DNA from: a phage
Direction: 5' to 3' (one strand)
DNA length: 17,548 bases
NCBI GenBank assembly: GCA_025289735.1
Contig: GCA_025289735.1_4764.3
The notes beneath the pieces were generated by a model. That model saw nothing but the letters and a program-made list of their open reading frames with translations. It was not told the DNA's origin and did no database searches. The translations under genes were made by a program, and so were the position numbers. Of this stretch, positions 1-15,342 are shown one piece after another (within the stretch, counting starts at the first letter, position 1; each line of letters begins with the position of its first letter).

Positions 1-36
1 ATACTCGGAACTATAACTAATTTTTGAGGTTACTTT

Positions 37-1531: not shown

Positions 1532-1558
1532 AGCGGGGATTATCTCCCCGCTTTTCTA
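1532..1558 (+). terminator. Rho-independent terminator or attenuator after the gp36-like gene
   Basis: Hairpin AGCGGGGA-ttatc-TCCCCGCT directly followed by TTTTCT, 5 nt after the stop codon at 1525..1527. Confidence 0.6.
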
Positions 1559-1597
1559 AATAATATTATTCTAATAACCGTTTAAGGATTTTATAAA

Positions 1598-4500: not shown

Positions 4501-4636
4501 TTTGAACTATAACGGTGTTATTGGTTTAAATACTGCGGCAATCAACGAACACACCGAAGAAATTGCACTTCTTAAAGAAGAAAATAAACTTCTTCGTGAT
4601 CGTCTTGCTGCAATTGAAGCAAAATTATTTGGTTAA
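1598..4636 (+). CDS. 37: Long tail fiber distal subunit, gp37-like (1012 aa), with C-terminal intramolecular chaperone domain
   Basis: ATG at 1598 with AAGGA upstream. N-terminus MADLSRIQFKRTSTKGRKPDASTMNPGELAINLADQYLLTKNDSGAIINL parallels recalled T4 gp37 (MATLKQIQFKR...GELAINL...TKDDSGNIIDL). Length matches T4 gp37 (about 1026 aa). Gly/Asn/Thr-rich fibre composition. C-terminal about 114 aa begin with the S-D-x-R-x-K motif. Confidence 0.9.
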   Translation: MADLSRIQFKRTSTKGRKPDASTMNPGELAINLADQYLLTKNDSGAIINLSCPPVYDRDVTMAGKVKGNNYILSKTANYLEDQTARDLNYFGAFRTNGLDGFLELTLNVPHSSGIQHGRGFTFQYGHLGSRVETYGYNKEGQKAFSYKMYHEGDKPTPGELNVYSKQEVDRMFQKTLDFGIESGWFKIATVYLPQQYGRSAKIRLVGGNGYNVGQTGQANIIELVLRSGNGNPVGVVFNAYMTIWYIDQKFCAIPTGGDSYDIYGSYSGHTGFVLAEYQTSPDVNLTLYDNPQFIGSQLPEAETKFDAYTITSFSTYRNHGTLNFGANSQGQYDIEHLNEQPTNAKKMLRRFRSCAPATIWHETVDDNQYRLATGYEDTNQELLLTATSGLHVKKLTLDGGVTGNSGIDIRRGPNEASHFNFMDYRTGQDVRNGWFGFGDGQTKDFIWWNDNGQNSLNLLENGELQISGGKGQKIVMNSEVALSENARLAVRGGNYGVIFRNDGTNFHLLTTDLKDSFGNWNNRRPFSYDFAEGGLDLGGTTTARCLHLGIDGSTRIEDNLVFRAGSRQSMDYLEFVHWGASNTGRNNVLSLRDSKGFLAEFERKGDNTIQNTFFGRFKVNGGSNAITVNAPTDSESVYVKGTCNDVDNWYIGKGGADNALAFYSYKSNAAIYLTNNGEVLLAPQNTAIVNVNRDRIHINGTQWVANQPHGWGNQWLSEAPIFVDFGTGIPNDTYMPIIKARSQITGGYATKADFGIYRHGTDTWGDAVIRVGSAESGDSNHPNAIYTFRANGDFKAPAGLRAGVNLGVGTDPVLGGHSIAIGDNDTGLVWGGDGRINMFANGQHIASWGTMYQEHSGLWGSHGGLWTEVDKAIISHGHLVQANDNYSTYVRDIYIRSDIRVKKDLVKFENASKTLSKINGYKYLQKRGTNEDGSERWEENAGLIAQEVQAILPELVEGDPDSENLLRLNYNGVIGLNTAAINEHTEEIALLKEENKLLRDRLAAIEAKLFG
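4292..4633 (+). other. Predicted C-terminal intramolecular chaperone domain of gp37 (peptidase S74-like), putative autocleavage after Ser898
   Basis: Sequence ...YIRS|DIRVKKDLVKFENASKTLSKINGYKYL...LLKEENKLLRDRLAAIEAKLFG. The S-D-x-R-x-K start and coiled-coil C-terminal tail match the pattern I recall for endosialidase / T5 pb1-type self-cleaving chaperone domains. Confidence 0.6.
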
Positions 4637-4644
4637 TTTAAATG

Positions 4645-4662
4645 GCGGGGAGAAATCCCCGC
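4645..4662 (+). other. Stable stem-loop (GCGGGGA-GAAA-TCCCCGC) between gp37 and the downstream gene, no U-tract
   Basis: 7-bp GC-rich stem with a GNRA-type GAAA tetraloop 9 nt after the gp37 stop. Followed by TAAGGATCTT (the RBS of the next gene) rather than a T-run, so more likely an RNA stability or processing element than a terminator. Confidence 0.5.
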
Positions 4663-4674
4663 TAAGGATCTTAA

Positions 4675-4971
4675 ATGGGCTATTGGGTAAGTAATGAACA
4701 AGACACTAAAATAGATGCTGTAAAATGGCATGTTTTTGATATTCCTAATGGATATGTTCCCGGTCGTGCTGGTGTTGCCGTTTTGCGGCATACCGCTCGT
4801 GATGGTTGGGGCGATATGCATATTTCCGTTGACGGTGTGGTCGCCGCGCGTCGTCGTGGTGGTGGGGATTGGGGATTTACGGTTAATGCGTTTGTTCCTG
4901 CTGGATGTACTGTCACCTTTGGTCATGGGGGTGTCGGTGGTATTGAATACTTTAAATTTATGGAGTTTTAA
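4675..4971 (+). CDS. Small Gly/Trp-rich protein, paralog A of a tandem triplet (98 aa)
   Basis: ATG with AAGGA 6 nt upstream. Shares MGYWV...FDIPNG...GGGD...G-T-T pattern with the two downstream ORFs. Confidence 0.65.
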   Translation: MGYWVSNEQDTKIDAVKWHVFDIPNGYVPGRAGVAVLRHTARDGWGDMHISVDGVVAARRRGGGDWGFTVNAFVPAGCTVTFGHGGVGGIEYFKFMEF

Positions 4972-4973
4972 TT

Positions 4974-5279
4974 ATGGCTGGTTGGGTTGCTGGAAGAATG
5001 GCTAATGCTATTAGCATTTATGCTAATGGCGGCTGGTTTGGTATCCCTAATGGTTGGGTTACTGATTCATGCGGTATTGTGTCTGTTCATGCCGAAGCCG
5101 TTGGCGGTGGAGGTGACTTGGACGCCGAATTATATGTAAACGGTACTCTAGAATCAGGTCATCACGCTGGTAATGCCGGAAGTTGGGGAGCTAGTTCTTT
5201 AGTTGGTGTTGGTGCTACTGTCAGTTTTAGCATTGGTAAAGGAAGTTTAAACCACTTCCAATTTAGGAGAATGCATTAA
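4974..5279 (+). CDS. Small Gly/Trp-rich protein, paralog B of a tandem triplet (101 aa)
   Basis: ATG 2 nt after the stop of paralog A, GGAG 8 nt upstream. Motifs GWFGIPNGW and GGGGD shared with paralogs A and C. Confidence 0.65.
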   Translation: MAGWVAGRMANAISIYANGGWFGIPNGWVTDSCGIVSVHAEAVGGGGDLDAELYVNGTLESGHHAGNAGSWGASSLVGVGATVSFSIGKGSLNHFQFRRMH

Positions 5280-5578
5280 TGGGATATTGGGTGTATGGCG
5301 TTTTAGACAATAAAGCCGGTAAAGCGAATCAGGGATGGTTTGATATTCCTAACGGTTGGACAGCCGACGCTTTCGGTACGGTTTCATTTGGTGCTCATTC
5401 TTCTGGTGGTGGTGGTGACTCAGAATTGCTTTTGCATGGCTTTTGTGTGTCTGGAAGTCATAAGGGTCATGATTGGGGACAGATCCATTCTTGTATTGTG
5501 CCGCAGGGAGTAACGATCACGGTAACTACAAACAGGGGCATTTCCCATCTTCGTTATAGACGCCAGAGCAACCGTTAA
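5279..5578 (+). CDS. Small Gly/Trp-rich protein, paralog C of a tandem triplet (99 aa)
   Basis: Start overlaps the stop of paralog B (TAATG). AGGAGA 8 nt upstream. Motifs MGYWV, GWFDIPNGW, GGGGD. Confidence 0.65.
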   Translation: MGYWVYGVLDNKAGKANQGWFDIPNGWTADAFGTVSFGAHSSGGGGDSELLLHGFCVSGSHKGHDWGQIHSCIVPQGVTITVTTNRGISHLRYRRQSNR

Positions 5579-5629: not shown

Positions 5630-5869
5630 ATGGTCTATAATATCGTCATTGGTGCTTTGTCTAATTTCGGAATGAAACTATTGTCAAAGTTAATTAGTGA
5701 AAAGATGCTCACTAAAATCTTCTTCTATTGCGCTCGTCGTCTTGCGGCTTATACCAATACGCCAATTGATGATCGTTTTGTGGAAGAACTTTATAAGGAG
5801 TTTAATAAAGATCAGTTAGAAGATAGCAACGAGCAAAATAAAAATAGTGATAGTCAAGTACCTAAATAA
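5630..5869 (+). CDS. Hypothetical protein (79 aa) between the fibre module and the holin
   Basis: ATG with AAGGAG 8 nt upstream. Hydrophobic/amphipathic N-terminus and acidic, low-complexity C-terminus. No family recognised. Confidence 0.5.
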   Translation: MVYNIVIGALSNFGMKLLSKLISEKMLTKIFFYCARRLAAYTNTPIDDRFVEELYKEFNKDQLEDSNEQNKNSDSQVPK

Positions 5870-5902: not shown

Positions 5903-6559
5903 ATGCAAGTTTCTGAAAAAGGGAAAGACTTTGCTATCTCAAATGTCCTGCGCGCTATTTTCACAACTAAAAGCACGGAGTTGCTCGTACTTCGTGTTTT
6001 TGCTGCCGTCGTGTTGTCCATATTAGCATTTGTCGTTTATAGTAAAAACGAGTTATTTGCCTTGTATAAAGAGACTCGTTATGAGACTTATGCTCACGTT
6101 CTCCAGGTAGAGAAAGACCGCAATTTTGATAATGCAGCACAGGAGCAGTTACAGATAGTTCATGTGTCGGCTGATGCCGATTTTTCTGCTGTTTTTAGTT
6201 TTCGTCCGAAAAACCTAAACTATTTTGTTGATTTGGTGGCATATGAAGGAAAGCTACCGCATACAATCGATGAAAAAAATTTAGGTGGATTCCCTATCAA
6301 TAAAACGAGTGAAGAATATCGTAGGCATCTTTTAGGTAAATCATATTTTACCGATAAAGATTTCCAGTATATTCCATCAAGAGAAAAGAAATTAGAGAGT
6401 ATCGATATAGGGTTTATGTATTCTTGCCCTATATTCAATCTCGATAATGTCTATTCTGGTAGTATCGCCATTGCGTGGAAGAATAAACCGGATATTGACA
6501 TTGAGAATTTAGATACTCTTTGCAATCAATCTGCCAGAATCCTCGGAAGGATTAGATAA
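5903..6559 (+). CDS. t: Holin, T4 t-type (218 aa)
   Basis: Same length as T4 holin T. Single TMD (LVLRVFAAVVLSILAFVVY) after a short N-terminal region, then a large C-terminal domain. Several blocks match my recollection of T4 T: EQLQIVH, ADFSAVxSFRPKNLNYFVD, AYEGKLP, MYSCPxFNLDNxYxG, ARILGR. Confidence 0.9.
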   Translation: MQVSEKGKDFAISNVLRAIFTTKSTELLVLRVFAAVVLSILAFVVYSKNELFALYKETRYETYAHVLQVEKDRNFDNAAQEQLQIVHVSADADFSAVFSFRPKNLNYFVDLVAYEGKLPHTIDEKNLGGFPINKTSEEYRRHLLGKSYFTDKDFQYIPSREKKLESIDIGFMYSCPIFNLDNVYSGSIAIAWKNKPDIDIENLDTLCNQSARILGRIR

Positions 6560-6564
6560 CTTAA

Positions 6565-6597
6565 AGGGGAAGCCTTTCGGCCTCCCCTTCTTTTTAT
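6565..6597 (+). terminator. Rho-independent terminator after holin t
   Basis: 10-bp stem AGGGGAAGCC / GGCCTCCCCT (one mismatch), loop TTTC, followed by TCTTTTTA. Confidence 0.7.
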
Positions 6598-6842
6598 TGG
6601 AGCATAGAAGCCCCTGAATCACATTTTGACGCTGTATGATGAAAACAGGTAGCGTACCAGTCATCGGCTTGTTTGTCTTCGTCAGAAAACGCGTAATTGC
6701 GTTGTATGCCGTTTTCTACTTTGACCAGTGCAATAGCTGTTTCTGGAAGATCAATCAATCGGACAAAATCACCGTCTTCCCACTCCACACGGGCAATATC
6801 ATAGCCCATCTCAAAGTATACAATCGCTTGTTCTAATTTCAT
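6594..6842 (-). CDS. Hypothetical early protein (82 aa)
   Basis: ATG overlaps the upstream stop (ATGA). Last gene of the minus-strand array, ending at the t terminator. Confidence 0.5.
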   Translation of the reverse strand: MKLEQAIVYFEMGYDIARVEWEDGDFVRLIDLPETAIALVKVENGIQRNYAFSDEDKQADDWYATCFHHTASKCDSGASMLQ

Positions 6843-7162
6843 TCTGGAAACTTCCCGTAAACATTCTCTGCCAGCTTACGTGCATCTTTTACAATATCTT
6901 TCATGTAATGACTATAATTTTTAGCTAGATCAATGATGCAATCAACAAAGAAGTAATAGCGTCGCAGTGCTACCAGCTCAACATCTTCAAGATGACCATT
7001 TTCTCCAATCGCTGAAATATGTTTAAATTCCTTTCGGATCGCGTCCATCGCTACATTAACTTCTTTTATAATATCTTTCGTATTATATGCACCTCGACTA
7101 ATCAAAATTTTGGTTAGGTCTTCTGCTTTTTCGTGAAAGTTGTCAATTTCAAACTCGATCAT
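6839..7162 (-). CDS. Hypothetical early protein (107 aa), paralog of 7277..7609
   Basis: Track start at 7168 is a GTG lying inside the SD GAGGTGA. ATG at 7160..7162 with that SD 5 nt upstream is the likelier start. C-terminus ...ARKLAENVYGKFPE resembles the neighbour's ...ARIMTENIFGKF. Confidence 0.55.
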   Translation of the reverse strand: MIEFEIDNFHEKAEDLTKILISRGAYNTKDIIKEVNVAMDAIRKEFKHISAIGENGHLEDVELVALRRYYFFVDCIIDLAKNYSHYMKDIVKDARKLAENVYGKFPE

Positions 7163-7276
7163 AATCACCTCTCATGGTTTAACGCTGTTGTGTCAACATT
7201 TTTTCGTGGTTTGCTAATTCTATACATTGTAATAGCATAACCAGTGCAATTTTCAATGATTCATCATCTTTCATAA

Positions 7277-7609
7277 TCAAAATTTACCGAAAATATTCTC
7301 TGTCATAATTCTTGCTTCGTCGATTATTTTCGTCATGTTCATGGTGTAGTTATGATCATTTAGTGCCTTAATAACAACGAGCAAGGAATCTAAAAACACT
7401 CGATACCGTGTATATTCTACGCTATTTGTGAATACCGATGTTTTCTCGACTTTATCGATCAGATAGCCTAAAACCGATAGCGCCTCGTTTACTTCCCTTG
7501 TTACTTTATCGGCGCTAAAAAGCACCGGATAAAGGCGCGGTGTGATTAACCGCGCTGCCTCTTTCAATTCGGTCGCTTTCCATGATTCATATTTGTCATA
7601 GTTAAACAT
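7277..7609 (-). CDS. Hypothetical early protein (110 aa), paralog of 6839..7162
   Basis: ATG with AAGGAGA 8 nt upstream. Shared blocks EVN-A, RY--F-D, ARxxxENxxGKF with the downstream neighbour. Confidence 0.55.
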   Translation of the reverse strand: MFNYDKYESWKATELKEAARLITPRLYPVLFSADKVTREVNEALSVLGYLIDKVEKTSVFTNSVEYTRYRVFLDSLLVVIKALNDHNYTMNMTKIIDEARIMTENIFGKF

Positions 7610-7621
7610 TGTATAATCTCC

Positions 7622-7954
7622 TTACAGATGAAAACCTGTTACAATCACCGCATCGATCATACCGCTAGGAATAAACGGTTCACCCTCTTTTATTTCAACT
7701 TTGAATTGATGCCATTTCGCTAATACTTCTTCCGGTACACCCAGCGATTCGGCGTCTGCTTTAGTTTCATCCATAATCCAACTAGGCTGCATGAGAGCAT
7801 AGTTTACATAGTCCATTTCTGGGGTCATGTCATCAATGTTAATATATTTGCAGTTGACGCGTTTCAGAATTTCAAATTCTTTATTATCAACCTGTACCAT
7901 GTACAATTCGGTAGTTTCTGGAATCAGTTCCCATACAATCAGTACATTTTTCAT
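7622..7954 (-). CDS. Hypothetical early protein (110 aa)
   Basis: ATG with GAGGTGA upstream, overlapping the stop of the preceding gene. Tight operon packing. Confidence 0.55.
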   Translation of the reverse strand: MKNVLIVWELIPETTELYMVQVDNKEFEILKRVNCKYINIDDMTPEMDYVNYALMQPSWIMDETKADAESLGVPEEVLAKWHQFKVEIKEGEPFIPSGMIDAVIVTGFHL

Positions 7955-7962
7955 AGTTCACC

Positions 7963-8331
7963 TCACTTAACAAAGATTTTCTTTAATGCTTTCAGGATCG
8001 TTGCTTCCGGCGCTTCTTCCGGTGGAGGAAGCAATTCTACCACTTCCTCTTCCAACTCGATATAGTCTACCAGATATTCTACATAGAATGCAAGTGCTTC
8101 CATGAAATTAGATGCTACATCCGATTCACCACACGCGCCTACATGCATTGTATAAACATCACTGCGATCAAGTTTGTGGATACTGCCTAGATAGTTTCGG
8201 TTATACCAGACTTCCCACACTTTCAGCTTTCCGGTTTTGGTTGCTGTTTTATAATCGGTTTCGTAGTGGTGCAATTGACGTTGCAGATCATTGATAATAA
8301 CACATTTTTCGTAATTGTTTTGAATTTCCAT
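7963..8331 (-). CDS. Hypothetical early protein (122 aa), acidic Pro-rich C-terminus
   Basis: ATG with GAGGAT upstream. C-terminus ELEEEVVELLPPPEEAPEA. Confidence 0.55.
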   Translation of the reverse strand: MEIQNNYEKCVIINDLQRQLHHYETDYKTATKTGKLKVWEVWYNRNYLGSIHKLDRSDVYTMHVGACGESDVASNFMEALAFYVEYLVDYIELEEEVVELLPPPEEAPEATILKALKKIFVK

Positions 8332-8341
8332 GATGTAATCC

Positions 8342-8533
8342 TCACTTATCGTTAAGAAGATCTAAAACTTTCTGTCGTACTTTGTCAATATTAGTTGATT
8401 CAAAAACTGTACGGTATCCCCAGCTTTGACCGTATGAGCGGTTGCAATCTCCATATCCCCATTGTTCAACCTGATAGTATTCAAGGAATGGATGCTGCCG
8501 AACTATGATACCATCGCGGTTAAAAATTACCAT
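8342..8533 (-). CDS. Hypothetical early protein (63 aa)
   Basis: ATG with GAGGA 7 nt upstream. Trp/Tyr/Gly-rich small protein. Confidence 0.45.
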   Translation of the reverse strand: MVIFNRDGIIVRQHPFLEYYQVEQWGYGDCNRSYGQSWGYRTVFESTNIDKVRQKVLDLLNDK

Positions 8534-8556
8534 AATATAATCCTCACGTCAACAAC

Positions 8557-8838
8557 TTATTTTCGGTTATACTTCTGCCACTTTCGGTAATACTGCTTGT
8601 AATATTGTTTAATGTTTGGTGGTTCGTCACTATACATGTTATCAACCATCATGTCAATAAGACCTTCCGGTGTTTGATAGTTACCCGCTCGAATGAGTTC
8701 CTTAATCAAAAGATCTTGCGTCGCTTTATACTTGACAATAACAACTGTCTTTTCTGCCTTTCCAATTCCGATCCGGTCGTTAGCTCTCATAGCATCCCAC
8801 CAATCTTTTTTAAACTTCATGTTGTTAAATTTCATCAT
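8557..8838 (-). CDS. Hypothetical early protein (93 aa), basic Tyr/Lys-rich C-terminus
   Basis: Two consecutive ATG codons with AAGAAGGG upstream, overlapping the stop of the 266-aa gene. Confidence 0.5.
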   Translation of the reverse strand: MMKFNNMKFKKDWWDAMRANDRIGIGKAEKTVVIVKYKATQDLLIKELIRAGNYQTPEGLIDMMVDNMYSDEPPNIKQYYKQYYRKWQKYNRK

Positions 8839-9639
8839 TTAACCCTTCTTATATTCGCAAACATATTGAGTACCATAATCATAGCTAATGCGACCTTTCT
8901 CGATGACTTCAAAGCGGATTTCATCGTTTTCCCCTACCCACATTTTGTACTCGTTGAAGTATCCTGCTACATCCGGTTTGCTCATACCAACAACCATATT
9001 TTTATATTGTTTGCTGCGTGTCAGATTTGATTTAAACACTTCGCGCTCATCAACATATACGAAAGAAGACAATTCACCTTCGGTCATGGTCATTTTCAGC
9101 TTGCCGCCCTTGTTGCCATAAGTAGAGTTGCCATACAATGGATCTTTGCGGCTGTCTGTTTCAATACCATCAATGATTTTCCATGTAAATTTTGCAATGC
9201 ACTGGTAAGTGATAGATCCAGAGATTTTCTCTTCTTTCTTCTGTTCTTCCACCACTTTTTCTTCCTGTTTCGGTTGTTCTTCTTCAACCTTCACAGAAGT
9301 CTCTGAATCGCTTTCTGACGCGGTTTCTTCTTTAGGTAATACATTCATCAAGTTTTGGATTTGAGCGTGATATACAGCCTCCAGTGGCTGAATTTTCCCG
9401 ATATTGATCATTGTATCACGAACAGTTTTATTCCAGTTGCGTTGCTCTTGTTTCAGAGACGGATCAATCTTAACAGCCTTAACATATACTTCATGAAGTT
9501 TAGAATCAAGTGCGGAGATAGACTCATTAGCACAAATAAACTTCTCTGATTTGGTAGTAGCTTTAGCGCAATCAAAGGACGCAGCATTAGCACCGAAAGC
9601 AGTAGCAGAAAGAACGATAGCAGCGATAATGTTTTTCAT
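8839..9639 (-). CDS. Secreted protein with N-terminal LprI/DUF1311-like domain, charged linker and C-terminal beta-rich domain (266 aa)
   Basis: ATG with GAGGAA 8 nt upstream, directly downstream of promoter cassette P3. Signal peptide MKNIIAAIVLSATAFGANA|AS. Then FDCAKATTKSEKFICANESISALDSKLHEVY...QEQRNWNKTVRD, fitting the DUF1311 pattern as I recall it (C..A.T..E..IC...LD..L..Y...Q..W...RD). E/K-rich linker. C-terminal domain with two Cys and an SGSITY motif. Confidence 0.7.
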   Translation of the reverse strand: MKNIIAAIVLSATAFGANAASFDCAKATTKSEKFICANESISALDSKLHEVYVKAVKIDPSLKQEQRNWNKTVRDTMINIGKIQPLEAVYHAQIQNLMNVLPKEETASESDSETSVKVEEEQPKQEEKVVEEQKKEEKISGSITYQCIAKFTWKIIDGIETDSRKDPLYGNSTYGNKGGKLKMTMTEGELSSFVYVDEREVFKSNLTRSKQYKNMVVGMSKPDVAGYFNEYKMWVGENDEIRFEVIEKGRISYDYGTQYVCEYKKG

Positions 9640-9673
9640 AATATATTCCTCAGTGTTTTGTCTTGATGGTAGT

Positions 9674-9702
9674 ATGTTACTACTCCCTTAATCCGGTGTC
9701 AA
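9674..9702 (-). promoter_or_regulatory. Sigma70-like early promoter P3 (-35 TTGACA, 17-nt spacer, -10 TAACAT)
   Basis: Minus-strand sequence aaaaagtagTTGACA-N17-TAACAT, about 35 nt upstream of the ATG at 9639. A-rich upstream element. Shares a conserved leader with the other cassettes. Confidence 0.6.
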
Positions 9703-9709
9703 CTACTTT

Positions 9710-9865
9710 TTAAATTTCTTCTACAGTAAAGTCTTCAATGTTGTTGTGCTCGGAGAACGTTGCCAGACCAGCATTCCATGCATCATCCTCAGAGAAGAAT
9801 ACACCGTAACGTTCATATCCCTTAGCGCCTTCAAATTTAACCATTAATTTGTGAGTATGTTTCAT
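9710..9865 (-). CDS. Hypothetical early protein (51 aa), acidic
   Basis: ATG at 9863..9865 with AAGGAG 7 nt upstream, downstream of P4. The track ORF start at 9898 lies inside the promoter. Confidence 0.5.
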   Translation of the reverse strand: MKHTHKLMVKFEGAKGYERYGVFFSEDDAWNAGLATFSEHNNIEDFTVEEI

Positions 9866-9896
9866 TTTGATTCTCCTTAGTTGTCTTGATGAGTTC

Positions 9897-9925
9897 ATTA
9901 TAGGGGATCACCGATCCCCTGTCAA
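9897..9925 (-). promoter_or_regulatory. Sigma70-like early promoter P4 (-35 TTGACA, palindromic 17-nt spacer, -10 TATAAT)
   Basis: Minus-strand GTTGACA-GGGGATCGGTGATCCCC-TATAAT. The spacer is a perfect inverted repeat containing two GATC sites. Confidence 0.6.
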
Positions 9926-9933
9926 CAACTATT

Positions 9934-10146
9934 TTAATGTTTACCCACGCGTAAATTAATGCGCATTTTCTGCATAGCCATGATCTGGTTTACTGCTTCT
10001 TCTTTACGTTCTTGCGTGATAACGTGACCAGATTCCGCAAACTCTCCCGCAACTTCTTCTACAATCTCGCGAACTTGAGAACGTCCAAAGATGCGGTTTC
10101 CTTCGTAGCTCATAAATTCAGTCACTACTTGCTCAATAGATTTCAT
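9934..10146 (-). CDS. Hypothetical early protein (70 aa)
   Basis: ATG with AAGGAG 7 nt upstream, downstream of P1. Confidence 0.55.
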   Translation of the reverse strand: MKSIEQVVTEFMSYEGNRIFGRSQVREIVEEVAGEFAESGHVITQERKEEAVNQIMAMQKMRINLRVGKH

Positions 10147-10178
10147 GTGATTCTCCTTCTTTCGTTTGGTATGGGAGT

Positions 10179-10207
10179 ATATTACTACTCCCGTTTCTTT
10201 ACGTCAA
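10179..10207 (-). promoter_or_regulatory. Sigma70-like early promoter P1 (-35 TTGACG, 17-nt spacer, -10 TAATAT)
   Basis: Minus-strand ctaaaaaccaGTTGACG-N17-TAATAT followed by the conserved leader ATACTCCCATACCAAAC and the RBS. Confidence 0.6.
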
Positions 10208-10214
10208 CTGGTTT

Positions 10215-10457
10215 TTAGAAATTTTTCGCTTCTTCTTCGGTAATCATAACCGCGCATTCGTGCATAACTTTGAAAACCGGATCAATCATGTCGAATGCTT
10301 CGCGGGACAGTTTACGAGAAGCGATTTTGATTGCTTCAACGTCTTCGACTACAGGAACAAAAACAGTTTTCAGTTCATCGAGAACGGCAGCTTCTTTTTC
10401 ATTCAGGAAGATCCCAGCGTCGTACAGTGCAACTTCGATAACATTAACTTTAACCAT
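10215..10457 (-). CDS. Hypothetical early protein (80 aa), acidic
   Basis: ATG at 10455..10457 with GGAGGAAA upstream, downstream of P2. The track N-terminal extension is a translation of the promoter. Confidence 0.55.
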   Translation of the reverse strand: MVKVNVIEVALYDAGIFLNEKEAAVLDELKTVFVPVVEDVEAIKIASRKLSREAFDMIDPVFKVMHECAVMITEEEAKNF

Positions 10458-10491
10458 TTTTATTTCCTCCAGTTCGTTTCGGTATGGGAGT

Positions 10492-10520
10492 ATAATACTA
10501 CCGATGACCTTTGGCGTCAA
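10492..10520 (-). promoter_or_regulatory. Sigma70-like early promoter P2 (-35 TTGACG, 17-nt spacer, -10 TATTAT)
   Basis: Minus-strand acaaaaaactaGTTGACG-N17-TATTAT followed by the conserved leader ATACTCCCATACCGAAAC. Overlaps the 3' end of the upstream gene. Confidence 0.6.
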
Positions 10521-10722
10521 CTAGTTTTTTGTTATTTTCGTGAAAATTTTTCGTCGCCTCATGTGCTTTTCGCTGGGCTTCTTGTTGTGCTTGCTGGCGT
10601 GCTGCCTCTTGCGATGCCATAACAGACGCATTTGCAGCAGTTACAGCCGCGACCATCGCTGCGGTATTAGCATTTACCGTACATGCACTAGCCAGCAAAG
10701 CAATTGCAATCATTTTCTTCAT
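10498..10722 (-). CDS. Small secreted protein or lipoprotein (74 aa) with Gln/Ala-rich helical mature region
   Basis: ATG with AAGGGG 6 nt upstream, overlapping the upstream stop (ATGA). N-terminus MKKMIAIALLASAC has a lipobox-like LASAC; an alternative signal peptidase I site lies at VNA|NT. Mature part QEAARQQAQQEAQRKAHEATK. Confidence 0.6.
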   Translation of the reverse strand: MKKMIAIALLASACTVNANTAAMVAAVTAANASVMASQEAARQQAQQEAQRKAHEATKNFHENNKKLVDAKGHR

Positions 10723-10889
10723 AGTTTCCCCTTTATGTTATCTTCGACCTTCATCCATTCCGCGTATTCTTGTGCGGCTACTTTCGGATTTAAGCCGTCT
10801 TCGTACATTGCATCAAGTAATTCTTTGTCGGTGGGCTTATACCCTAGATAAGCCTCCACCTGATTTTTCCAAATTTTATACCAGTTCAT
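10719..10889 (-). CDS. Hypothetical early protein (56 aa)
   Basis: Internal ATG (MNWYKIWKNQ...) with GGTGAT 4 nt upstream. The longer track ORF would overlap the upstream gene by 65 nt. Confidence 0.45.
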   Translation of the reverse strand: MNWYKIWKNQVEAYLGYKPTDKELLDAMYEDGLNPKVAAQEYAEWMKVEDNIKGKL

Positions 10890-10893
10890 ATTA

Positions 10894-11166
10894 TCACCAG
10901 TCAAGAGCGCGTGTCTCTGCGTCTTCCCATGCTTGGTCCATAACAGCCTTGAAAACATATTCTAAAGTATCATCTTTAGAGAATCCGAAGATTTTAGACG
11001 GAATATCTTCAATTGCTACTCCCGCAACTTCTGCATTACGCGCTTGGCAGTAATGCAACTCTAAGTTATCGAGATAGCGACCGCCTAATTTCTCCATATC
11101 ATCCCAGCATTTCCAGTAACCTACTTTATTTGCAATTGCTAACACTTTGCTGTTTTCGTTGCTCAT
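10894..11166 (-). CDS. Hypothetical early protein (90 aa)
   Basis: ATG at 11164..11166 with AAGGAGA 7 nt upstream, first gene downstream of P5. Confidence 0.55.
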   Translation of the reverse strand: MSNENSKVLAIANKVGYWKCWDDMEKLGGRYLDNLELHYCQARNAEVAGVAIEDIPSKIFGFSKDDTLEYVFKAVMDQAWEDAETRALDW

Positions 11167-11197
11167 CTTTGATTCTCCTTTTGTTTGGTATGTGTGT

Positions 11198-11226
11198 ATT
11201 ATGCGAGGCTGGATTCGTGAAGTCAA
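11198..11226 (-). promoter_or_regulatory. Sigma70-like early promoter P5 (-35 TTGACT, 17-nt spacer, -10 CATAAT)
   Basis: Minus-strand attttaaaaagttGTTGACT-N17-CATAAT followed by leader ATACACACATACCAAAC and the RBS. Lies immediately downstream of the terminator at 11236..11267. Confidence 0.6.
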
Positions 11227-11235
11227 CAACTTTTT

Positions 11236-11267
11236 AAAATAAAAAAGCCGACCACAAGGATCGGCTT
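11236..11267 (-). terminator. Rho-independent terminator (minus strand) after the 131-aa gene
   Basis: Minus-strand hairpin AGCCGA ... TCGGCT (6 bp, 9-nt loop) followed by TTTTTTATTTT. Confidence 0.6.
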
Positions 11268-11276
11268 AATAATCAG

Positions 11277-11672
11277 TTACTTACTAAATTTCTTTTTGGC
11301 TTCGTCTACTGCATGAGATGCCAGTACCGCCGCCGCATGTGCACTTTTATCTGTGTTGCAGAGAACACCCAGATAAACATCACGCCAAAGTTTAATCATC
11401 TCGTAGATCATATCAATATCATTTTCTTGTTTGTTGGCGATGCTATTCGTCGTTATCTGGTAAGGTAACGGCTTAATCTGTACTGGTTCCGCCATCGGGC
11501 TAATAGGTTTCGGATCAGTCATAATAGGTGCTGTTGTGGGTGATGTTTTCCATACGTCATTATTCCACGGTTTAATCGTTGTATCGTAAAGTTTATAAGG
11601 ATTTTTGTCTGGGTCAACCATCCATGCATGATGAGTACCCAAACCATTTGAAGTGATGCGTCGTTCAGTCAT
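11277..11672 (-). CDS. Hypothetical early protein (131 aa)
   Basis: ATG with GGAGGGAAAGT upstream. Start overlaps the 3' end of the upstream gene by 8 nt. Confidence 0.55.
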   Translation of the reverse strand: MTERRITSNGLGTHHAWMVDPDKNPYKLYDTTIKPWNNDVWKTSPTTAPIMTDPKPISPMAEPVQIKPLPYQITTNSIANKQENDIDMIYEMIKLWRDVYLGVLCNTDKSAHAAAVLASHAVDEAKKKFSK

Positions 11673-11868
11673 ACTTTCCCTCCAAAAATTCTTTCATCAA
11701 ATAATCTATCGTTGCTCTGTGTTCTGGTGTGTTTGTTATCTCTGCTAACTTGTTCAGAGATTCAATAGTGATTCGGTTGGCTTCTTCCATAGTCTCAACG
11801 ACCATCGGTACAATCTTTTTATTGTTGTACACGAAAGCCACATAACCGCCTTCTGGATATTCTTTCAT
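11665..11868 (-). CDS. Hypothetical early protein (67 aa)
   Basis: ATG at 11866..11868 with AAGAAGGG upstream. The track start at 11874 is a TTG. Immediately downstream of gene 52. Confidence 0.5.
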   Translation of the reverse strand: MKEYPEGGYVAFVYNNKKIVPMVVETMEEANRITIESLNKLAEITNTPEHRATIDYLMKEFLEGKYD

Positions 11869-11870
11869 AA

Positions 11871-13235
11871 TCAACCCTTCTTAAGTTCTTTAAGATCTTT
11901 CTTATATTCCTTCATTGCGGTCGTCTTTGTCCAATACTCATATTCACTATGATGTTTATCGGCATCTTTGACCAGTCGATCATACTCTTCTTGGGTAACG
12001 CTGTACAATGGCATAGAAACTAGCTTATCGGCGTATGGACGCAGTTTTTCATGTCCATTGATGGATTGCATTACCTCGGCCTTTTTCTTGCCCTGTAGCT
12101 CGATTTCGCCCTTAATTACGCGGTCGATAAATTCGGCTTTAGCCATTGCATAATTGTATGCTTCCAGCGTTTCCGCTTGCATCAATTCAATGCGTTTATC
12201 GACATAGCCTAATCGGATTTCGACGAATCGACGGATCAGATCGCTCGCTTTCTCGAATACTTCTACTAAACCACGTTCATTAACTACTACGATATTCTGG
12301 GCTACTAACTGTGTTAGTTTAAAATCCTTCATGATTTGCTCATGTCGAGCGGATTCATCTTCGCTTTTGAAATAATCACGTTTCAGTGTTACTTCAAATC
12401 TGAATCCGTCCTTAGAGCAACGGTCATTATACGATACAATCAGATCTTTTTCTTCCAGTGCATCCAGTACCGCTACATATTCTTCACGGTCGAACTTATA
12501 AGGAACTTCTGATATTGTCAGTTTAGTCTTGCCGTTTAGTTCATATGTACCCTCAAGAATTACACCATCGCGATCATCTCGCGGGATAACTTTACCCGTG
12601 AATTTCGGGAATTGAACACTAGGTTCTTTATCCAGTTTTCCGGCAAGTGCTAGCTCTGTGCATTCAATGAGGCTTTCCAGTGAATGCGGTAAAATGTCAG
12701 TTTTATACCCTGTAGCAATACCACTAATACCATTAGCCAATACCATTGGCACAACTGGCAAGTAGAACGCTGGCGGGATGTGTTCCAGATCTTCGTGCTT
12801 CGGTGCGCAATTCATATCTTTATAGATTTTAAAGAAGTTTTCATGCACACGAGCAAAGATATAACGTGCCGCACCTGCTTTCTGGACTAAACGCGATCCG
12901 AAGTTACCTTGACCGTCAAGCAGTGGAGTATTATTGCTCCATGTATTCGCCATGAGTGATCCGGCTTCTACGGCATTAGTTTCCCCGTGGTGATAACCCA
13001 ACTCAGCAACACCAGATCCAATATCTGCCATCTTACGGAATTTCTTACGGTCGCCTTTACTCTTTTGCAAAGCACATTCCATAACAAAGCGTTGCACTGG
13101 TTTAAGCCCATCCACTAATTGAGGAATCCCGCGTTCCTCGGCAGAATAGATCGCATATTCCTTAGCTTCATTATGTACAATGCTTTCAAGGCTGCGGTAA
13201 GTAAATGTGTTTACAATTTGACTAATTTTATCCAT
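11871..13235 (-). CDS. 52: DNA topoisomerase II medium subunit, gp52-like (GyrA-like breakage-reunion domain)
   Basis: ATG at 13233..13235 with GAGGTGA upstream; the track start is a GTG. HNEAKEYAIYSAEERGIPQLVDGLKPVQRFV, GYHHGE, LLDGQGNFGS, ARYIFAR and HIPPAFYLP match recalled T4 gp52 / GyrA N-terminal motifs. Confidence 0.9.
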   Translation of the reverse strand: MDKISQIVNTFTYRSLESIVHNEAKEYAIYSAEERGIPQLVDGLKPVQRFVMECALQKSKGDRKKFRKMADIGSGVAELGYHHGETNAVEAGSLMANTWSNNTPLLDGQGNFGSRLVQKAGAARYIFARVHENFFKIYKDMNCAPKHEDLEHIPPAFYLPVVPMVLANGISGIATGYKTDILPHSLESLIECTELALAGKLDKEPSVQFPKFTGKVIPRDDRDGVILEGTYELNGKTKLTISEVPYKFDREEYVAVLDALEEKDLIVSYNDRCSKDGFRFEVTLKRDYFKSEDESARHEQIMKDFKLTQLVAQNIVVVNERGLVEVFEKASDLIRRFVEIRLGYVDKRIELMQAETLEAYNYAMAKAEFIDRVIKGEIELQGKKKAEVMQSINGHEKLRPYADKLVSMPLYSVTQEEYDRLVKDADKHHSEYEYWTKTTAMKEYKKDLKELKKG

Positions 13236-13242
13236 CTTCACC

Positions 13243-13605
13243 TCATACACGCTTACAAATCACATTCTTTACTTTATCAGATTTATCAGCCCAATCCAAT
13301 AGCCATTTTAACGGAAGGATTGACACAATAAACGGGGCAGCAATCAAAGCAAACATGATACACCTGATAATCAGGAAAACGCAAGTGACAAAACTAGCGA
13401 TAGTGATCCCGACAAAACAAAATACCATAGAAAACAGAGTAATGATATAGAAAGGCCAGAATACCCACTCCCGCATCTTAACGCCTTTGTATTCTCTGAA
13501 TTGCTTAAAATCAACAAACAACTCTCGGATAGACGAGTACAGGACCGAAAAATCATCTTTCATTGCTCTGAATGAGCAATCTTCTATTTTAGAATGACCT
13601 AGCAT
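13243..13605 (-). CDS. Small membrane protein (120 aa, two predicted TM helices)
   Basis: ATG with AAGGCGG upstream. Hydrophobic segments WVFWPFYIITLFSMVFCFVGITIASFV and CVFLIIRCIMFALIAAPFIVSILPL. Confidence 0.55.
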   Translation of the reverse strand: MLGHSKIEDCSFRAMKDDFSVLYSSIRELFVDFKQFREYKGVKMREWVFWPFYIITLFSMVFCFVGITIASFVTCVFLIIRCIMFALIAAPFIVSILPLKWLLDWADKSDKVKNVICKRV

Positions 13606-13607
13606 TA

Positions 13608-13901
13608 TTAACCGCCTTTAACCATTGATACAGGAATTGTTTTCTGATTTGTGTATAATTGGCCTACTTCAATTTTTTCTTGAATCACCACGACGTTACA
13701 ATATCCACTGTCTTTAAGTTTTCTGATAATGACTCGCTTTTGTTCGTCGGTGATAGGATTGACTGTTCTCACCAATTCACCGCAAATAATAGCACCATCT
13801 TTACAATTACCAGTAACTTTCATGCTACGACCGTGAACAACAACCACGTCACCGTAAATCACATTTTCGTCGTCGTATTTGGTAATAACCGTGACCGTCA
13901 T
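13608..13901 (-). CDS. Hypothetical early protein (97 aa)
   Basis: ATG with GAGGGA 7 nt upstream. Val-rich, probably beta-rich. No family recognised. Confidence 0.5.
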   Translation of the reverse strand: MTVTVITKYDDENVIYGDVVVVHGRSMKVTGNCKDGAIICGELVRTVNPITDEQKRVIIRKLKDSGYCNVVVIQEKIEVGQLYTNQKTIPVSMVKGG

Positions 13902-13920
13902 AATGTATTCCCTCTAAGAA

Positions 13921-13939
13921 AGGCCGCGCAAAGCGGCCT
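13921..13939 (-). terminator. Intergenic hairpin, possible weak terminator or RNA stabiliser (minus strand)
   Basis: AGGCCGC-gcaaa-GCGGCCT stem-loop between two minus-strand genes. On the minus strand it is followed by TTCTT and then the RBS of the next gene. Confidence 0.35.
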
Positions 13940-13946
13940 ATGTTGA

Positions 13947-15280: not shown

Positions 15281-15342
15281 AGTATTCATTCCTCTATTAG
15301 TTGGGCGACTATCGCCGCCCGATTCACATCATTATACCAGAA

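What the first reader, a model, noticed from the sequence alone, without database searches (positions are those of the whole stretch)
6594..11672. No motA or asiA homologue between holin t and gene 52
In T4 the interval between t and 52 contains asiA, arn and motA, the middle-mode transcription machinery. Here the interval holds about 17 small ORFs, none of the right size or sequence (AsiA about 90 aa, MotA about 211 aa as I recall), while the early promoters look sigma70-like. That points to a pseudo-T-even type of regulation without MotA-dependent middle promoters, or to these genes being elsewhere in the genome.
Basis: partly seen in the sequence, partly recalled or inferred. Interest (0 to 1): 0.5.

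Follow-up and report, generated by a model that had tools for sequence, protein, structure and literature searches.

The report
RB49-type phage lacks MotA and AsiA
This stretch of an RB49-like (Krischvirus) coliphage really has no MotA or AsiA gene between the holin and topoisomerase genes, but that absence, and the simpler early/late gene control that goes with it, has been published for this phage group since 2002-2006, so the finding is correct but ordinary.

Summary
The window comes from a Krischvirus, 96-97% identical in DNA to E26, GEC-3S, Phi1 and RB49. Holin t (5903..6559, +) and topoisomerase gp52 (11871..13250, -) are confirmed. Between them lie 17 small minus-strand ORFs.

None is a MotA or AsiA homologue by Pfam, PHROGs, tblastn, my own HMMs or hhalign, while T4 MotA and AsiA controls scored 1e-42 to 1e-98. 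A complete RB49 genome also has neither gene.

MotA-box promoters are absent from RB49 (1 found, 1.6 expected). A T4-type control genome has 19 against 3 expected. Consensus sigma-70 promoters are about five-fold enriched in RB49 and the window, and ten-fold in the interval.

The interval is a known "hyperplastic region". It holds early-promoter/stem-loop (PeSL) cassettes that drive ORFans, and one cassette is present or absent among relatives.

All of this matches published work (Desplats 2002 as cited by Nolan 2006; Hinton 2010; Arbiol 2010).

One modest extra: the 82-aa ORF that sits exactly where T4 has asiA has a Tad2 (anti-Thoeris sponge, DUF2829) fold. I found no paper reporting this for Krischvirus.

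The parts
5903..6559 (+). Holin t, the left boundary gene.
   Evidence: Pfam Phage_holin_T 7.9e-61. 48% identity to T4 t, E 8e-68.
6563..6590 (.). Bidirectional terminator hairpin between the convergent t gene and the minus-strand early ORFs.
   Evidence: GGGGAAGCC-TTTC-GGCCTCCCC with a T-run on one side and an A-run on the other. Folds at -23.2 kcal/mol, z -5.4. GEC-3S annotates a terminator on both strands at the matching place.
6594..6842 (-). 82-aa Tad2-like (DUF2829) protein at the position asiA occupies in T4. Putative anti-Thoeris signal sponge.
   Evidence: Pfam Tad2-like 27.9 bits against a cut-off of 25. phrog_1048 1.9e-18. AF2 model pLDDT 72 with helix 1 followed by five strands. 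The top 11 Foldseek PDB hits are all Tad2, prob 1.00, TM 0.54-0.62.
6839..7168 (-). 109-aa ORFan, paralogue A of phrog_9457.
   Evidence: phrog_9457 8.4e-57. Related to 7277..7609, BLASTP 8e-08. No MotA or AsiA signal.
7179..7280 (-). 33-aa ORF.
   Evidence: phrog_17009 5.1e-23. A small CDS is annotated at the matching place in GEC-3S.
7277..7609 (-). 110-aa ORFan, paralogue B of phrog_9457.
   Evidence: phrog_9457 2.7e-43. The AF2 model shows four long helices but pLDDT is 53, too low to use.
7622..7954 (-). 110-aa ORFan.
   Evidence: phrog_4658 4.2e-40. No Pfam hit.
7963..8331 (-). 122-aa ORFan.
   Evidence: phrog_1594 8.8e-26. No Pfam hit.
8342..8533 (-). 63-aa ORFan.
   Evidence: phrog_6957 2e-41.
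8557..8838 (-). 93-aa ORFan.
   Evidence: phrog_15915 2.5e-52. No AsiA signal.
8839..9639 (-). 266-aa predicted secreted protein with an N-terminal LprI/DUF1311-like domain. It is the only ORF near MotA size and it is not MotA.
   Evidence: Pfam LprI 23.4 bits against a cut-off of 22, residues 24-76. phrog_14799 4e-155. Hydrophobic N-terminus MKNIIAAIVLSATAFGANA. The acidic middle part (window 8870-9237) does not align to RB49.
9674..9702 (-). Early promoter cassette P_9702 (TTGACA-17-TAACAT), upstream of the 266-aa ORF.
   Evidence: Aligned with the other cassettes.
9710..9898 (-). Single-ORF cassette. The likely true start is the ATG at 9865, giving 51 aa. Present here and in RB49, absent from GEC-3S.
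   Evidence: phrog_19699 8.4e-41 from residue 12. Window 9718-9913 is missing from GEC-3S, and the two flanking alignment blocks share 27 nt of GEC-3S promoter sequence.
9897..9925 (-). PeSL promoter P_9925: perfect TTGACA-17-TATAAT with a GGGGATC/GATCCCC hairpin in the spacer.
   Evidence: 12 of 12 consensus positions. Hairpin -14.6 kcal/mol, z -2.4. An 82%-identical copy lies elsewhere in the RB49 genome.
9934..10146 (-). 70-aa ORFan.
   Evidence: phrog_14966 9.8e-49.
10179..10207 (-). PeSL promoter P_10207 (TTGACG-17-TAATAT) with a GGGAGTA/TACTCCC hairpin over the -10 box.
   Evidence: Hairpin -11.9 kcal/mol, z -3.4. GEC-3S annotates a promoter at the matching place.
10215..10520 (-). ORFan. 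The likely true start is the ATG at 10457, giving 80 aa.
   Evidence: No Pfam or PHROG family. Starting at 10457 reproduces the 243-nt GEC-3S CDS length and places the start downstream of P_10520.
10492..10520 (-). Early promoter cassette P_10520 (TTGACG-17-TATTAT).
   Evidence: GEC-3S annotates a promoter at the matching place.
10498..10722 (-). 74-aa ORF with a signal-peptide-like N-terminus.
   Evidence: Sequence MKKMIAIALLASACTVNA.... No family hit.
10719..10958 (-). ORFan. The likely true start is the ATG at 10889, giving 56 aa.
   Evidence: phrog_8655 8.4e-28 from residue 21. GEC-3S has a 171-nt CDS here.
10894..11229 (-). ORFan. The likely true start is the ATG at 11166, giving 90 aa.
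   Evidence: phrog_7287 4.5e-38 from residue 26. GEC-3S has a 273-nt CDS here.
11198..11226 (-). Early promoter cassette P_11226 (TTGACT-17-CATAAT).
   Evidence: GEC-3S annotates a promoter at the matching place.
11245..11267 (-). Intrinsic terminator immediately upstream of P_11226.
   Evidence: 9-bp stem followed by a T-run. -12.7 kcal/mol, z -4.0. Annotated as a terminator in GEC-3S.
11277..11672 (-). 131-aa ORFan at roughly the position motA occupies in T4.
   Evidence: phrog_15644 3.3e-92. No Pfam hit. hhalign against MotA gives 0.1% probability.
11665..11874 (-). 69-aa ORFan whose start overlaps the stop of gene 52.
   Evidence: phrog_15105 3.4e-45.
11871..13250 (-). gp52, topoisomerase II medium subunit, the right boundary gene.
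   Evidence: Pfam DNA_topoisoIV 6.5e-69. 51% identity to T4 gp52, E 3e-147.

Best explanation
The window is the t-to-52 segment of a Krischvirus (RB49 group). In T4 this slot carries asiA, arn and motA. Here that whole block is replaced by a 5.3-kb 'hyperplastic region' of 17 small early genes.

Those genes are read leftwards from at least five repeated consensus sigma-70 promoters. Two of these carry stable stem-loops, which makes them PeSL cassettes. Transcription is stopped by a strong bidirectional hairpin next to t.

The phage has no MotA/AsiA sigma-appropriation system and no Mot-box middle promoters. Prereplicative genes are read by unmodified host sigma-70 polymerase from strong -35/-10 promoters. 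Late genes use the T4-type late system.

Shown here: the absence of homologues, the absence of Mot-box promoters, the excess of sigma-70 promoters, the cassette repeats, and one cassette present or absent among relatives.

Taken from the literature or inferred: that only two temporal promoter classes exist, that the promoters fire early, and that the small ORFs serve accessory roles such as anti-defence. One of them has a Tad2 fold.
For: Identity of the window. It is 96-97% identical to Krischvirus genomes over 86-97% of the interval.

No homologue in the window. No AsiA or MotA family hit for any ORF in Pfam or PHROGs, while T4 controls hit at 1e-42 to 2e-98. tblastn of T4 asiA, asiA.1, arn, arn.1-4, motA and motA.1 gave a best E of 0.24, whereas t and 52 hit at 8e-68 and 3e-147.

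No homologue in RB49. HMMs built from 5 MotA and 6 AsiA sequences of T4-like phages of enterobacteria, Acinetobacter and Aeromonas, plus one Pseudomonas phage AsiA, found nothing in six frames of the window or of a complete RB49 genome. The best per-domain E was 0.35, and an included MotA control scored 8e-89. hhalign probabilities were at most 4.2%.

Promoters. Mot box plus -10: RB49 1 against 1.6 expected, T4-type ES26 19 against 3.0. Sigma-70 consensus: RB49 114 against 24, interval 8 against 0.8. Five promoter cassettes lie upstream of start codons (28-35 nt from the end of the -10 box to the ATG) and share an AT-rich upstream tract plus TTGAC. Two carry stable hairpins.

Cassette polymorphism. 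One cassette is missing from GEC-3S.

Literature. PMC1524935 reports no motA orthologue and no middle consensus in RB49, with early and late modes conserved. PMC2988021 gives the distribution of motA and asiA among T4-type phages. PMC2839356 describes PeSLs and hyperplastic regions in RB49 and phi1.
Against: The whole-genome check used RB49 (OZ035808), not the window's own genome, which is unknown. Absence 'elsewhere' is therefore shown for a relative that is 94-97% identical.

Sequence profiles cannot exclude a non-homologous functional analogue. Only one of the 17 ORFs gave a usable structure model.

Timing of transcription was not measured here.

P_10520 and P_9702 do not fold into convincing hairpins (z -1.7 and -0.4), so not every cassette is a full PeSL.
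Confidence: 0.9

Rival explanations
1. motA and asiA exist in this phage but have moved to another part of the genome, outside the 17.5-kb window.
For: The window covers only about 11% of a roughly 164-kb genome. The window's own genome was not available to search.
Against: A six-frame HMM and phmmer search of a complete RB49 genome found nothing better than E 0.02 for a whole sequence and 0.35 for a single domain. Mot-box promoters are not enriched in RB49. The 100 sampled rows of the MotA and AsiA tblastn searches, which hit 1143 and 1173 records, show no Krischvirus; those listings are not exhaustive. Published searches of RB49 also failed (PMC1524935). In four other T4-like phages (one Acinetobacter phage and three tevenviruses, T4 included) asiA and motA both lie between t and 52; in an Aeromonas phage motA lies next to 52.
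Confidence: 0.02
2. One of the 17 ORFs is a MotA or AsiA homologue that has diverged beyond the reach of sequence profiles.
For: AsiA diverges fast: the KVP40 protein is 27% identical to T4's yet functional (PMC2988021). Most ORFs here have no known function. ORFs of 82 and 93 aa are AsiA-sized.
Against: The Pfam and PHROG profiles, and my own profile that includes Aeromonas and Pseudomonas-phage AsiA at 29-34% identity to T4, give only noise. The 82-aa ORF at the asiA position has a Tad2 alpha/beta fold. The best noise-level AsiA candidate, 13608..13901, has a sequence that looks strand-rich to the eye. The only MotA-sized ORF is a secreted LprI-like protein. No Mot-box promoters exist for such a protein to act on.
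Confidence: 0.03
3. The phage has no MotA or AsiA homologue, but an unrelated early protein, possibly one of these ORFans, remodels or inhibits sigma-70 polymerase to shut off the very strong early promoters.
For: RB49-type early promoters are near-consensus and very strong in reporter assays (PMC2839356), so some shut-off mechanism is plausible. Hinton 2010 raises the idea of non-homologous functional analogues of MotA for phages that lack it (PMC2988021). All 17 ORFs sit behind early-type promoters, and 15 are of unknown function.
Against: There is no positive evidence for any specific ORF. The one ORF with a usable structure model points to anti-defence (Tad2-like), and a second carries a lysozyme-inhibitor-type (LprI) domain, rather than transcription. 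Early shut-off could equally come from late-sigma competition, ADP-ribosylation (alt is reported in RB49, PMC1524935) or mRNA decay.
Confidence: 0.05

Closest known systems
The t-52 hyperplastic region of RB49, Phi1 and GEC-3S (genus Krischvirus)
   Same: 94-98% DNA identity across the alignable interval. Same gene order, same promoter and terminator positions as annotated in GEC-3S, same ORFan families. No MotA or AsiA.
   Different: One 196-bp single-ORF cassette (9718-9913) is present here and in RB49 but absent from GEC-3S. The middle of the 266-aa ORF does not align to RB49.
The T4 t-52 interval (asiA, asiA.1, arn, arn.1-4, motA, motA.1)
   Same: Same flanking genes in the same orientation: t convergent with a leftward early cluster that follows gene 52. 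Both intervals are packed with small early genes.
   Different: None of the nine T4 genes has a detectable homologue here. The interval is 5.3 kb with 17 ORFs, against 3.0 kb with 9 in T4. Promoters are the consensus TTGACA type, not the T4 early or Mot-box type.
T4-type phages with AsiA but no recognisable MotA (KVP40, Aeh1, NT1, phage 65)
   Same: They lack motA (PMC1524935, PMC2988021).
   Different: Those phages keep asiA. The RB49 group has neither gene.
PeSL (promoter-early stem-loop) cassettes of Arbiol et al. 2010
   Same: AT-rich tract, sigma-70 -35 and -10 boxes, a hairpin in the spacer or over the -10 box (including the GGGG...CCCC type), a Shine-Dalgarno sequence and an ORFan downstream. 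A cassette gain or loss is bounded by repeated promoter sequence.
   Different: Two of the five cassettes have only degenerate hairpins. Mini-circle formation was not testable here.
Tad2 (DUF2829) anti-Thoeris sponges of SPO1 and Myroides phage
   Same: This comparison applies only to ORF 6594..6842. Similar length (82 aa against 89 aa). Pfam domain above its cut-off. Predicted helix 1 followed by a five-strand sheet. Tad2 structures are the only strong fold matches (bioRxiv 10.1101/2023.05.01.538930).
   Different: 14-18% sequence identity. No sequence-level PDB hit. Very few relatives in 1.8 billion representative proteins. Ligand-binding residues, the tetramer and activity are untested.

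Membership tests
MotA (T4 middle-transcription activator) | N-terminal activation domain (Pfam MotA_activ PF09114). | tested here: not met
   No hit for any window ORF at E<=10 (17 interval ORFs plus 13243..13605) or E<=1 (the other window ORFs). T4 MotA control scored 9e-62.
MotA (T4 middle-transcription activator) | C-terminal 'double-wing' DNA-binding domain (Pfam MotCF PF09158; phrog_1345). | tested here: not met
   No hit. T4 controls scored 2e-69 and 2.3e-98. My 5-sequence HMM against six frames gave a best E of 2.1 in the window and 0.26 in RB49. hhalign probability at most 0.9%.
MotA (T4 middle-transcription activator) | Cognate Mot-box promoters ((a/t)(a/t)TGCTT(t/c)A, 11-13 nt, -10 box) enriched in the genome. 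| tested here: not met
   Window 0 against 0.2 expected. RB49 1 against 1.6. T4-type control 19 against 3.0, z 9.8. The excess of bare Mot boxes in RB49 is coding bias: 28 of 39 lie antisense to ORFs.
AsiA (anti-sigma-70 co-activator) | AsiA domain (Pfam PF09010; phrog_1166), about 90 aa. | tested here: not met
   No hit. T4 controls scored 1e-42 and 1.3e-41. My 6-sequence HMM and phmmer gave a best E of 0.23 in the window. hhalign probability at most 4.2%.
AsiA (anti-sigma-70 co-activator) | Small all-helical fold that binds sigma-70 region 4. | tested here: inconclusive
   The ORF at the asiA position is alpha/beta with a Tad2 fold, so it is not AsiA. The helical paralogue family gave only a pLDDT 53 model. 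The other ORFs were not modelled. Binding is not testable with these tools.
RB49-type two-class (early/late) transcription programme | Early promoters with the consensus sigma-70 -35 TTGAC(A/G), not the T4 GTTTAC. | tested here: met
   TTGACN-16..18-TANNNT: interval 8 against 0.8, window 15 against 2.7, RB49 114 against 24. The T4-type control has 33 against 31. This agrees with PMC1524935, which reports G preferred at -33 in RB49.
RB49-type two-class (early/late) transcription programme | Only two temporal promoter classes during infection. | not testable with these tools
   I recall this from the abstract of Desplats et al. 2002 (J Bacteriol 184:2789), which the library does not hold. [quoted passage not shown]
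RB49-type two-class (early/late) transcription programme | T4-type late promoters upstream of late genes. | tested here: inconclusive
   TCTAAATA (1555-1562) and CCTAAATA (5861-5868) lie 34-35 nt upstream of the gp37 and t start codons. The TAAATA core is strongly depleted genome-wide, 67 against 189+-15. gp55 and gp33 were not searched for here.
PeSL cassette (Arbiol et al. 2010) | Sigma-70 promoter with an AT-rich upstream tract and a stem-loop, immediately upstream of an ORFan. | tested here: met
   Alignment of six cassettes. Hairpins at P_9925 (-14.6 kcal/mol) and P_10207 (-11.9 kcal/mol) and a terminator next to P_11226 (-12.7 kcal/mol). Two cassettes are weak.
PeSL cassette (Arbiol et al. 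2010) | ORFan gain or loss bounded by PeSLs among close relatives. | tested here: met
   Window 9718-9913 is absent from GEC-3S. The flanking alignment blocks overlap by 27 nt of promoter sequence.
Tad2 / DUF2829 (ORF 6594..6842 only) | DUF2829 domain above the Pfam gathering score. | tested here: met
   27.9 bits against a cut-off of 25, E 3.4e-6. The 96%-identical database protein P0001 carries precomputed PF11195.
Tad2 / DUF2829 (ORF 6594..6842 only) | N-terminal helix followed by an antiparallel five-strand sheet. | tested here: met
   AF2 model at moderate confidence, pLDDT 72: H3-11, E15-20, E25-32, E36-43, E46-50, H54-58, E63-65. The top 11 Foldseek hits are all Tad2; the next hit has E 0.69.
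Tad2 / DUF2829 (ORF 6594..6842 only) | Homotetramer that binds gcADPR and inhibits Thoeris. | not testable with these tools
   Needs biochemistry or an infection assay. Binding-pocket residues were not compared.

The most novel reading that the evidence does not exclude
Because the RB49 group has neither AsiA nor MotA yet uses very strong consensus sigma-70 early promoters, one of the uncharacterised early ORFans in this interval could be a non-homologous modulator of host polymerase that shuts early transcription off. Candidates include the duplicated helical phrog_9457 pair and the 131-aa ORF at the motA position. Such a protein would be a new kind of phage anti-sigma or regulator.
Probability: 0.05. 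Interest if true: 0.55.

Novelty: already known. Interest (0 to 1): 0.12.

Why it matters
The result confirms, with positive controls, that sigma appropriation by MotA and AsiA is not universal among T4-like coliphages. The t-52 slot is a swap-prone accessory region in these phages.

This was established for RB49 two decades ago, so it adds no new biology.

Its practical value is in annotation. The interval can be labelled as a PeSL-driven early ORFan region. One ORF in it can be labelled Tad2-like, a testable anti-Thoeris candidate in a phage group that is used for therapy.

Tried and rejected
1. ORF 13608..13901 (97 aa) was the best AsiA 'candidate' (hmmsearch E 1-1.8, hhalign 4.2%). I rejected it. 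The sequence looks strand-rich to the eye and the alignment is noise.

2. The bare Mot box WWTGCTTYA is in excess in RB49 (39 against 22, z 4.8). I rejected it as a promoter signal. 28 of 39 copies lie antisense to ORFs, only 5 are intergenic, and only one in the genome (position not checked) has a -10 box at the right spacing.

3. TATAAATA counts do not separate either genome from chance, so I did not use them as a test for late promoters.

4. The generic promoter scan was not enriched overall (15 against 19.8). Only the stringent TTGACN form is informative.

5. PDB sequence and profile searches with the Tad2-like ORF found nothing. Only the fold search did.

6. The word-indexed protein search returned just 2 close relatives. 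The exhaustive search returned 9, so the alignment stayed shallow.

7. The structure model of the phrog_9457 paralogue had pLDDT 53. I ran no fold search on it because the matches would be meaningless.

8. Desplats 2002 (PMC135041) is not held in the library.

9. The Petrov 2010 review does not mention motA or asiA.

10. The window contains no Rfam family and no tRNA.

Full report
**What the window is.** A megablast of 5800-12200 finds 59 phage records. The best are Escherichia phages E26, GEC-3S, MIZ2/3/6, Phi1 and RB49 at 96-97% identity over 86-97% of the query. GEC-3S and RB49 are classified in genus Krischvirus, family Straboviridae. This is the group once called the pseudo-T-even RB49 group.

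**Gene map.**
- gp36-like tail fibre protein, 37..1527
- gp37, 1598..4636
- three small plus-strand ORFs, 4675..5578
- a 79-aa ORF, 5630..5869
- holin t, 5903..6559 (Pfam 7.9e-61; 48% identity to T4 t)
- 17 minus-strand small ORFs
- gp52, 11871..13250 (Pfam 6.5e-69; 51% identity to T4)
- three ORFans, 13243..14273
- rIIB, 14288..15289, and rIIA, 15486..17504

**Checking the observation.** T4 itself has asiA, asiA.1, arn, arn.1-4, motA and motA.1 between t and 52. An Acinetobacter phage (Lazarusvirus), a Gaprivervirus and a Mosugukvirus keep asiA next to t and motA next to 52. An Aeromonas phage keeps motA close to 52.

In the window, none of the 17 ORFs, and no other ORF of the window, matches these families:
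- Pfam AsiA, MotA_activ or MotCF. The cut-off was relaxed to E<=10 for the interval ORFs and E<=1 for the rest.
- PHROG anti-sigma factor (phrog_1166) or MotA (phrog_1345).

T4 AsiA and MotA, run in the same calls, scored 1e-42 to 2e-98.

Further checks agree:
- tblastn with word size 2 and no masking, using every T4 gene of the interval against the whole window, gave nothing better than E 0.24. T4 t and 52 hit at 8e-68 and 3e-147.
- I built HMMs from 5 MotA and 6 AsiA sequences: T4, Aeromonas Aes012 and Asfd_1, Acinetobacter AM101, UPEC01, Pectobacterium PM2 and Pseudomonas phage Astolliot. Searched with --max against all six-frame segments, they gave only noise.
- hhalign of 24 small ORFs against both alignments gave probabilities of at most 4.2%.

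One small correction: ORFs of 82 and 93 aa are AsiA-sized, so 'none of the right size' holds only for MotA.

**Are the genes elsewhere?** I fetched a complete, unannotated RB49 genome (OZ035808, 162,105 bp). It aligns to the window at 94-97% identity, apart from the tail-fibre tip. Six-frame HMM and phmmer searches found no MotA or AsiA. The best whole-sequence E was 0.02, on a 900-aa ORF whose best single domain scored 0.37.

tblastn of T4 MotA and AsiA against 50,697 phage records hits 1143 and 1173 records. The sampled rows span enterobacterial, Aeromonas, Acinetobacter and Pseudomonas phages but include no Krischvirus. Those listings are samples, not exhaustive.

**Promoter evidence.** Counts are on both strands. 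Expected values come from first-order Markov simulations.

| Pattern | Sequence | Found | Expected |
|---|---|---|---|
| WWTGCTTYA-N11-13-TANNNT (Mot box plus -10) | window | 0 | 0.2 |
| same | RB49 genome | 1 | 1.6 ± 1.1 |
| same | T4-type ES26 (has motA) | 19 | 3.0 ± 1.6 (z 9.8) |
| TTGACN-N16-18-TANNNT (sigma-70) | t-52 interval | 8 | 0.8 ± 0.9 |
| same | window | 15 | 2.7 ± 1.6 |
| same | RB49 genome | 114 | 24 ± 4.7 (z 19) |
| same | ES26 | 33 | 31 |

The bare Mot box is somewhat over-represented in RB49 (39 against 22). However, 28 of the 39 copies lie antisense to ORFs and only 5 are intergenic, so this is a coding-bias effect.

**Anatomy of the interval.**
- *Promoter cassettes.* Five minus-strand promoters (-35 hexamer starting at 11226, 10520, 10207, 9925 and 9702) lie upstream of start codons, 28-35 nt from the end of the -10 box to the ATG. 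They share an AT-rich tract, GTTGAC, a 17-nt spacer and a TAnnAT -10 box. Repeat families D1, D2 and D7 recover the same elements independently. Two weaker or internal sites lie at 8657 and 8552.
- *Hairpins.* P_9925 is a perfect TTGACA-17-TATAAT with a GGGGATC/GATCCCC hairpin in the spacer (-14.6 kcal/mol). P_10207 has a GGGAGTA/TACTCCC hairpin over the -10 box (-11.9 kcal/mol). P_11226 is preceded by a terminator (-12.7 kcal/mol). A -23.2 kcal/mol bidirectional hairpin separates the cluster from t. P_10520 and P_9702 fold weakly.
- *Match to published elements.* These are the 'promoter-early stem-loop' (PeSL) cassettes that Arbiol et al. 2010 (PMC2839356) described in the hyperplastic regions of RB49 and phi1. 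They proposed that PeSLs mediate ORFan shuffling.
- *A polymorphic cassette.* Window 9718-9913 is a one-ORF cassette. It is missing from GEC-3S, and the two flanking alignment blocks overlap on 27 nt of promoter sequence. RB49 has the cassette.
- *Corrected start codons.* Placing starts downstream of the promoters reproduces the CDS lengths annotated in GEC-3S.

**What the ORFs are.** Fifteen of the 17 fall in PHROG families of unknown function, and two have no family.
- *A diverged tandem pair.* ORFs 6839..7168 and 7277..7609 both belong to phrog_9457 (BLASTP 8e-08).
- *An LprI-like protein.* The 266-aa ORF has a signal-peptide-like N-terminus and an LprI/DUF1311 domain just above the Pfam cut-off.
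- *A Tad2-like protein.* The 82-aa ORF 6594..6842 sits exactly where T4 has asiA. It hits Pfam Tad2-like (DUF2829) at 27.9 bits against a cut-off of 25.

More on the Tad2-like ORF: it has very few relatives, 9 hits among 1.8 billion representative proteins. It has no sequence-level match in the PDB. An AlphaFold2 model from a 5-sequence alignment has pLDDT 72 and shows an N-terminal helix followed by a five-strand sheet. That is the topology described for SPO1 Tad2 (bioRxiv 10.1101/2023.05.01.538930). In Foldseek against the PDB, the top 11 hits are all Tad2 structures from SPO1 and a Myroides phage (prob 1.00, TM 0.54-0.62). The next hit has E 0.69.

So the ORF at the asiA position is a Tad2-fold protein, not a diverged AsiA. 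Whether it binds gcADPR is untested.

A model of the phrog_9457 paralogue was too poor to use (pLDDT 53).

**How it most likely works.** The following are shown here:
- There is no MotA or AsiA homologue.
- There are no Mot-box promoters.
- There is a large excess of consensus sigma-70 promoters.
- Promoter cassettes repeat in front of small ORFs.
- Terminators bound the cluster.
- One cassette is present or absent among relatives.

The following are inferred or taken from the literature:
- The cluster is transcribed early by unmodified host sigma-70 holoenzyme.
- The phage runs only early and late promoter classes. I recall this from the abstract of Desplats et al. 2002, which is not held in the library. 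Nolan et al. [quoted passage not shown]
- The ORFans are dispensable accessory genes.

Two late-promoter-like motifs, TCTAAATA and CCTAAATA, lie 34-35 nt upstream of the gp37 and t start codons. The TAAATA core is strongly avoided elsewhere in RB49, 67 against 189 ± 15. This fits a T4-type late system. I did not search for gp55 or gp33.

**Comparison with what is known.** Nolan et al. 2006 state that only RB69 and 44RR, among five T4-like genomes, have a motA orthologue and middle-type promoters. Attempts in RB49, RB43 and Aeh1 failed. asiA orthologues were found in RB69, 44RR, Aeh1 and KVP40, but RB49 is not among them. Hinton 2010 (PMC2988021) gives the same distribution and raises the possibility of non-homologous analogues of MotA.

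The finding therefore re-derives a published result.

**Verdict.** Interest is low. Two things remain open. One is the generic possibility, at about 5%, that an ORFan here is an unrelated modulator of host polymerase. The other is the modest new annotation of a Tad2-like gene in Krischvirus, for which I found no paper in the searchable library.

Noticed in passing
window 6594..6842 (-): The 82-aa ORF at the exact position of T4 asiA is a Tad2-like (DUF2829) protein. The Pfam hit is above its cut-off. The AF2 model has pLDDT 72. The top 11 PDB fold matches are all Tad2 anti-Thoeris sponges. It is only 14-18% identical to solved Tad2 proteins and has very few relatives in the databases. I found no paper linking Tad2 to Krischvirus.
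   Followed up: partly
window 8839..9639 (-): A 266-aa protein with a signal-peptide-like N-terminus, an LprI/DUF1311 (lysozyme-inhibitor family) domain at residues 24-76 and an acidic, Lys/Glu-rich linker. The linker region (window 8870-9237) does not align to RB49. It could be a periplasmic protein involved in superinfection exclusion or lysozyme inhibition; that is speculation.
   Followed up: no
window 2116..5574 (+): The C-terminal two-thirds of gp37 and three following small ORFs (4675..4971, 4974..5279, 5279..5578) do not align to RB49 or GEC-3S. GC skew rises to +0.26 to +0.30 from about 4000 to 5500. The region is 84-92% identical to 167-170-kb coliphages (vB_EcoM_G37-3, G2248, UPWr_E1). 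This looks like a horizontally exchanged receptor-binding module.
   Followed up: partly
window 9718..9913: A 196-bp single-ORF cassette (51-62 aa, phrog_19699), bounded by repeated early-promoter sequence, is present here and in RB49 but absent from GEC-3S. This is the pattern expected of PeSL-mediated insertion or deletion.
   Followed up: yes
window 1555..1562 and 5861..5868 (+); RB49 genome L003-L006: The window has no (A/T)ATAAATA at all (0 against 4.1 expected). TCTAAATA and CCTAAATA lie 34-35 nt upstream of the gp37 and t start codons. The TAAATA core is about three-fold depleted across the RB49 genome (67 against 189+-15). This suggests selection against stray late-promoter cores, and a C at -12 in at least some late promoters.
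   Followed up: partly
window 6839..7168 and 7277..7609 (-): A diverged tandem duplication of a roughly 110-aa predicted helical protein (phrog_9457, 29% identity overall, conserved C-terminal motif ARxxxENxxGKF). Function is unknown and the model confidence was too low for a fold search.
   Followed up: partly
L016 (Pseudomonas phage Astolliot, Otagovirus) 253..543: An AsiA-like protein (29% identity to T4 AsiA, annotated as an anti-sigma factor) lies directly downstream of a topoisomerase subunit gene. Its taxonomy line places the phage in genus Otagovirus, with no family named between class Caudoviricetes and the genus, so not in Straboviridae. The AsiA family may therefore reach beyond classical T4-like phages.
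   Followed up: no
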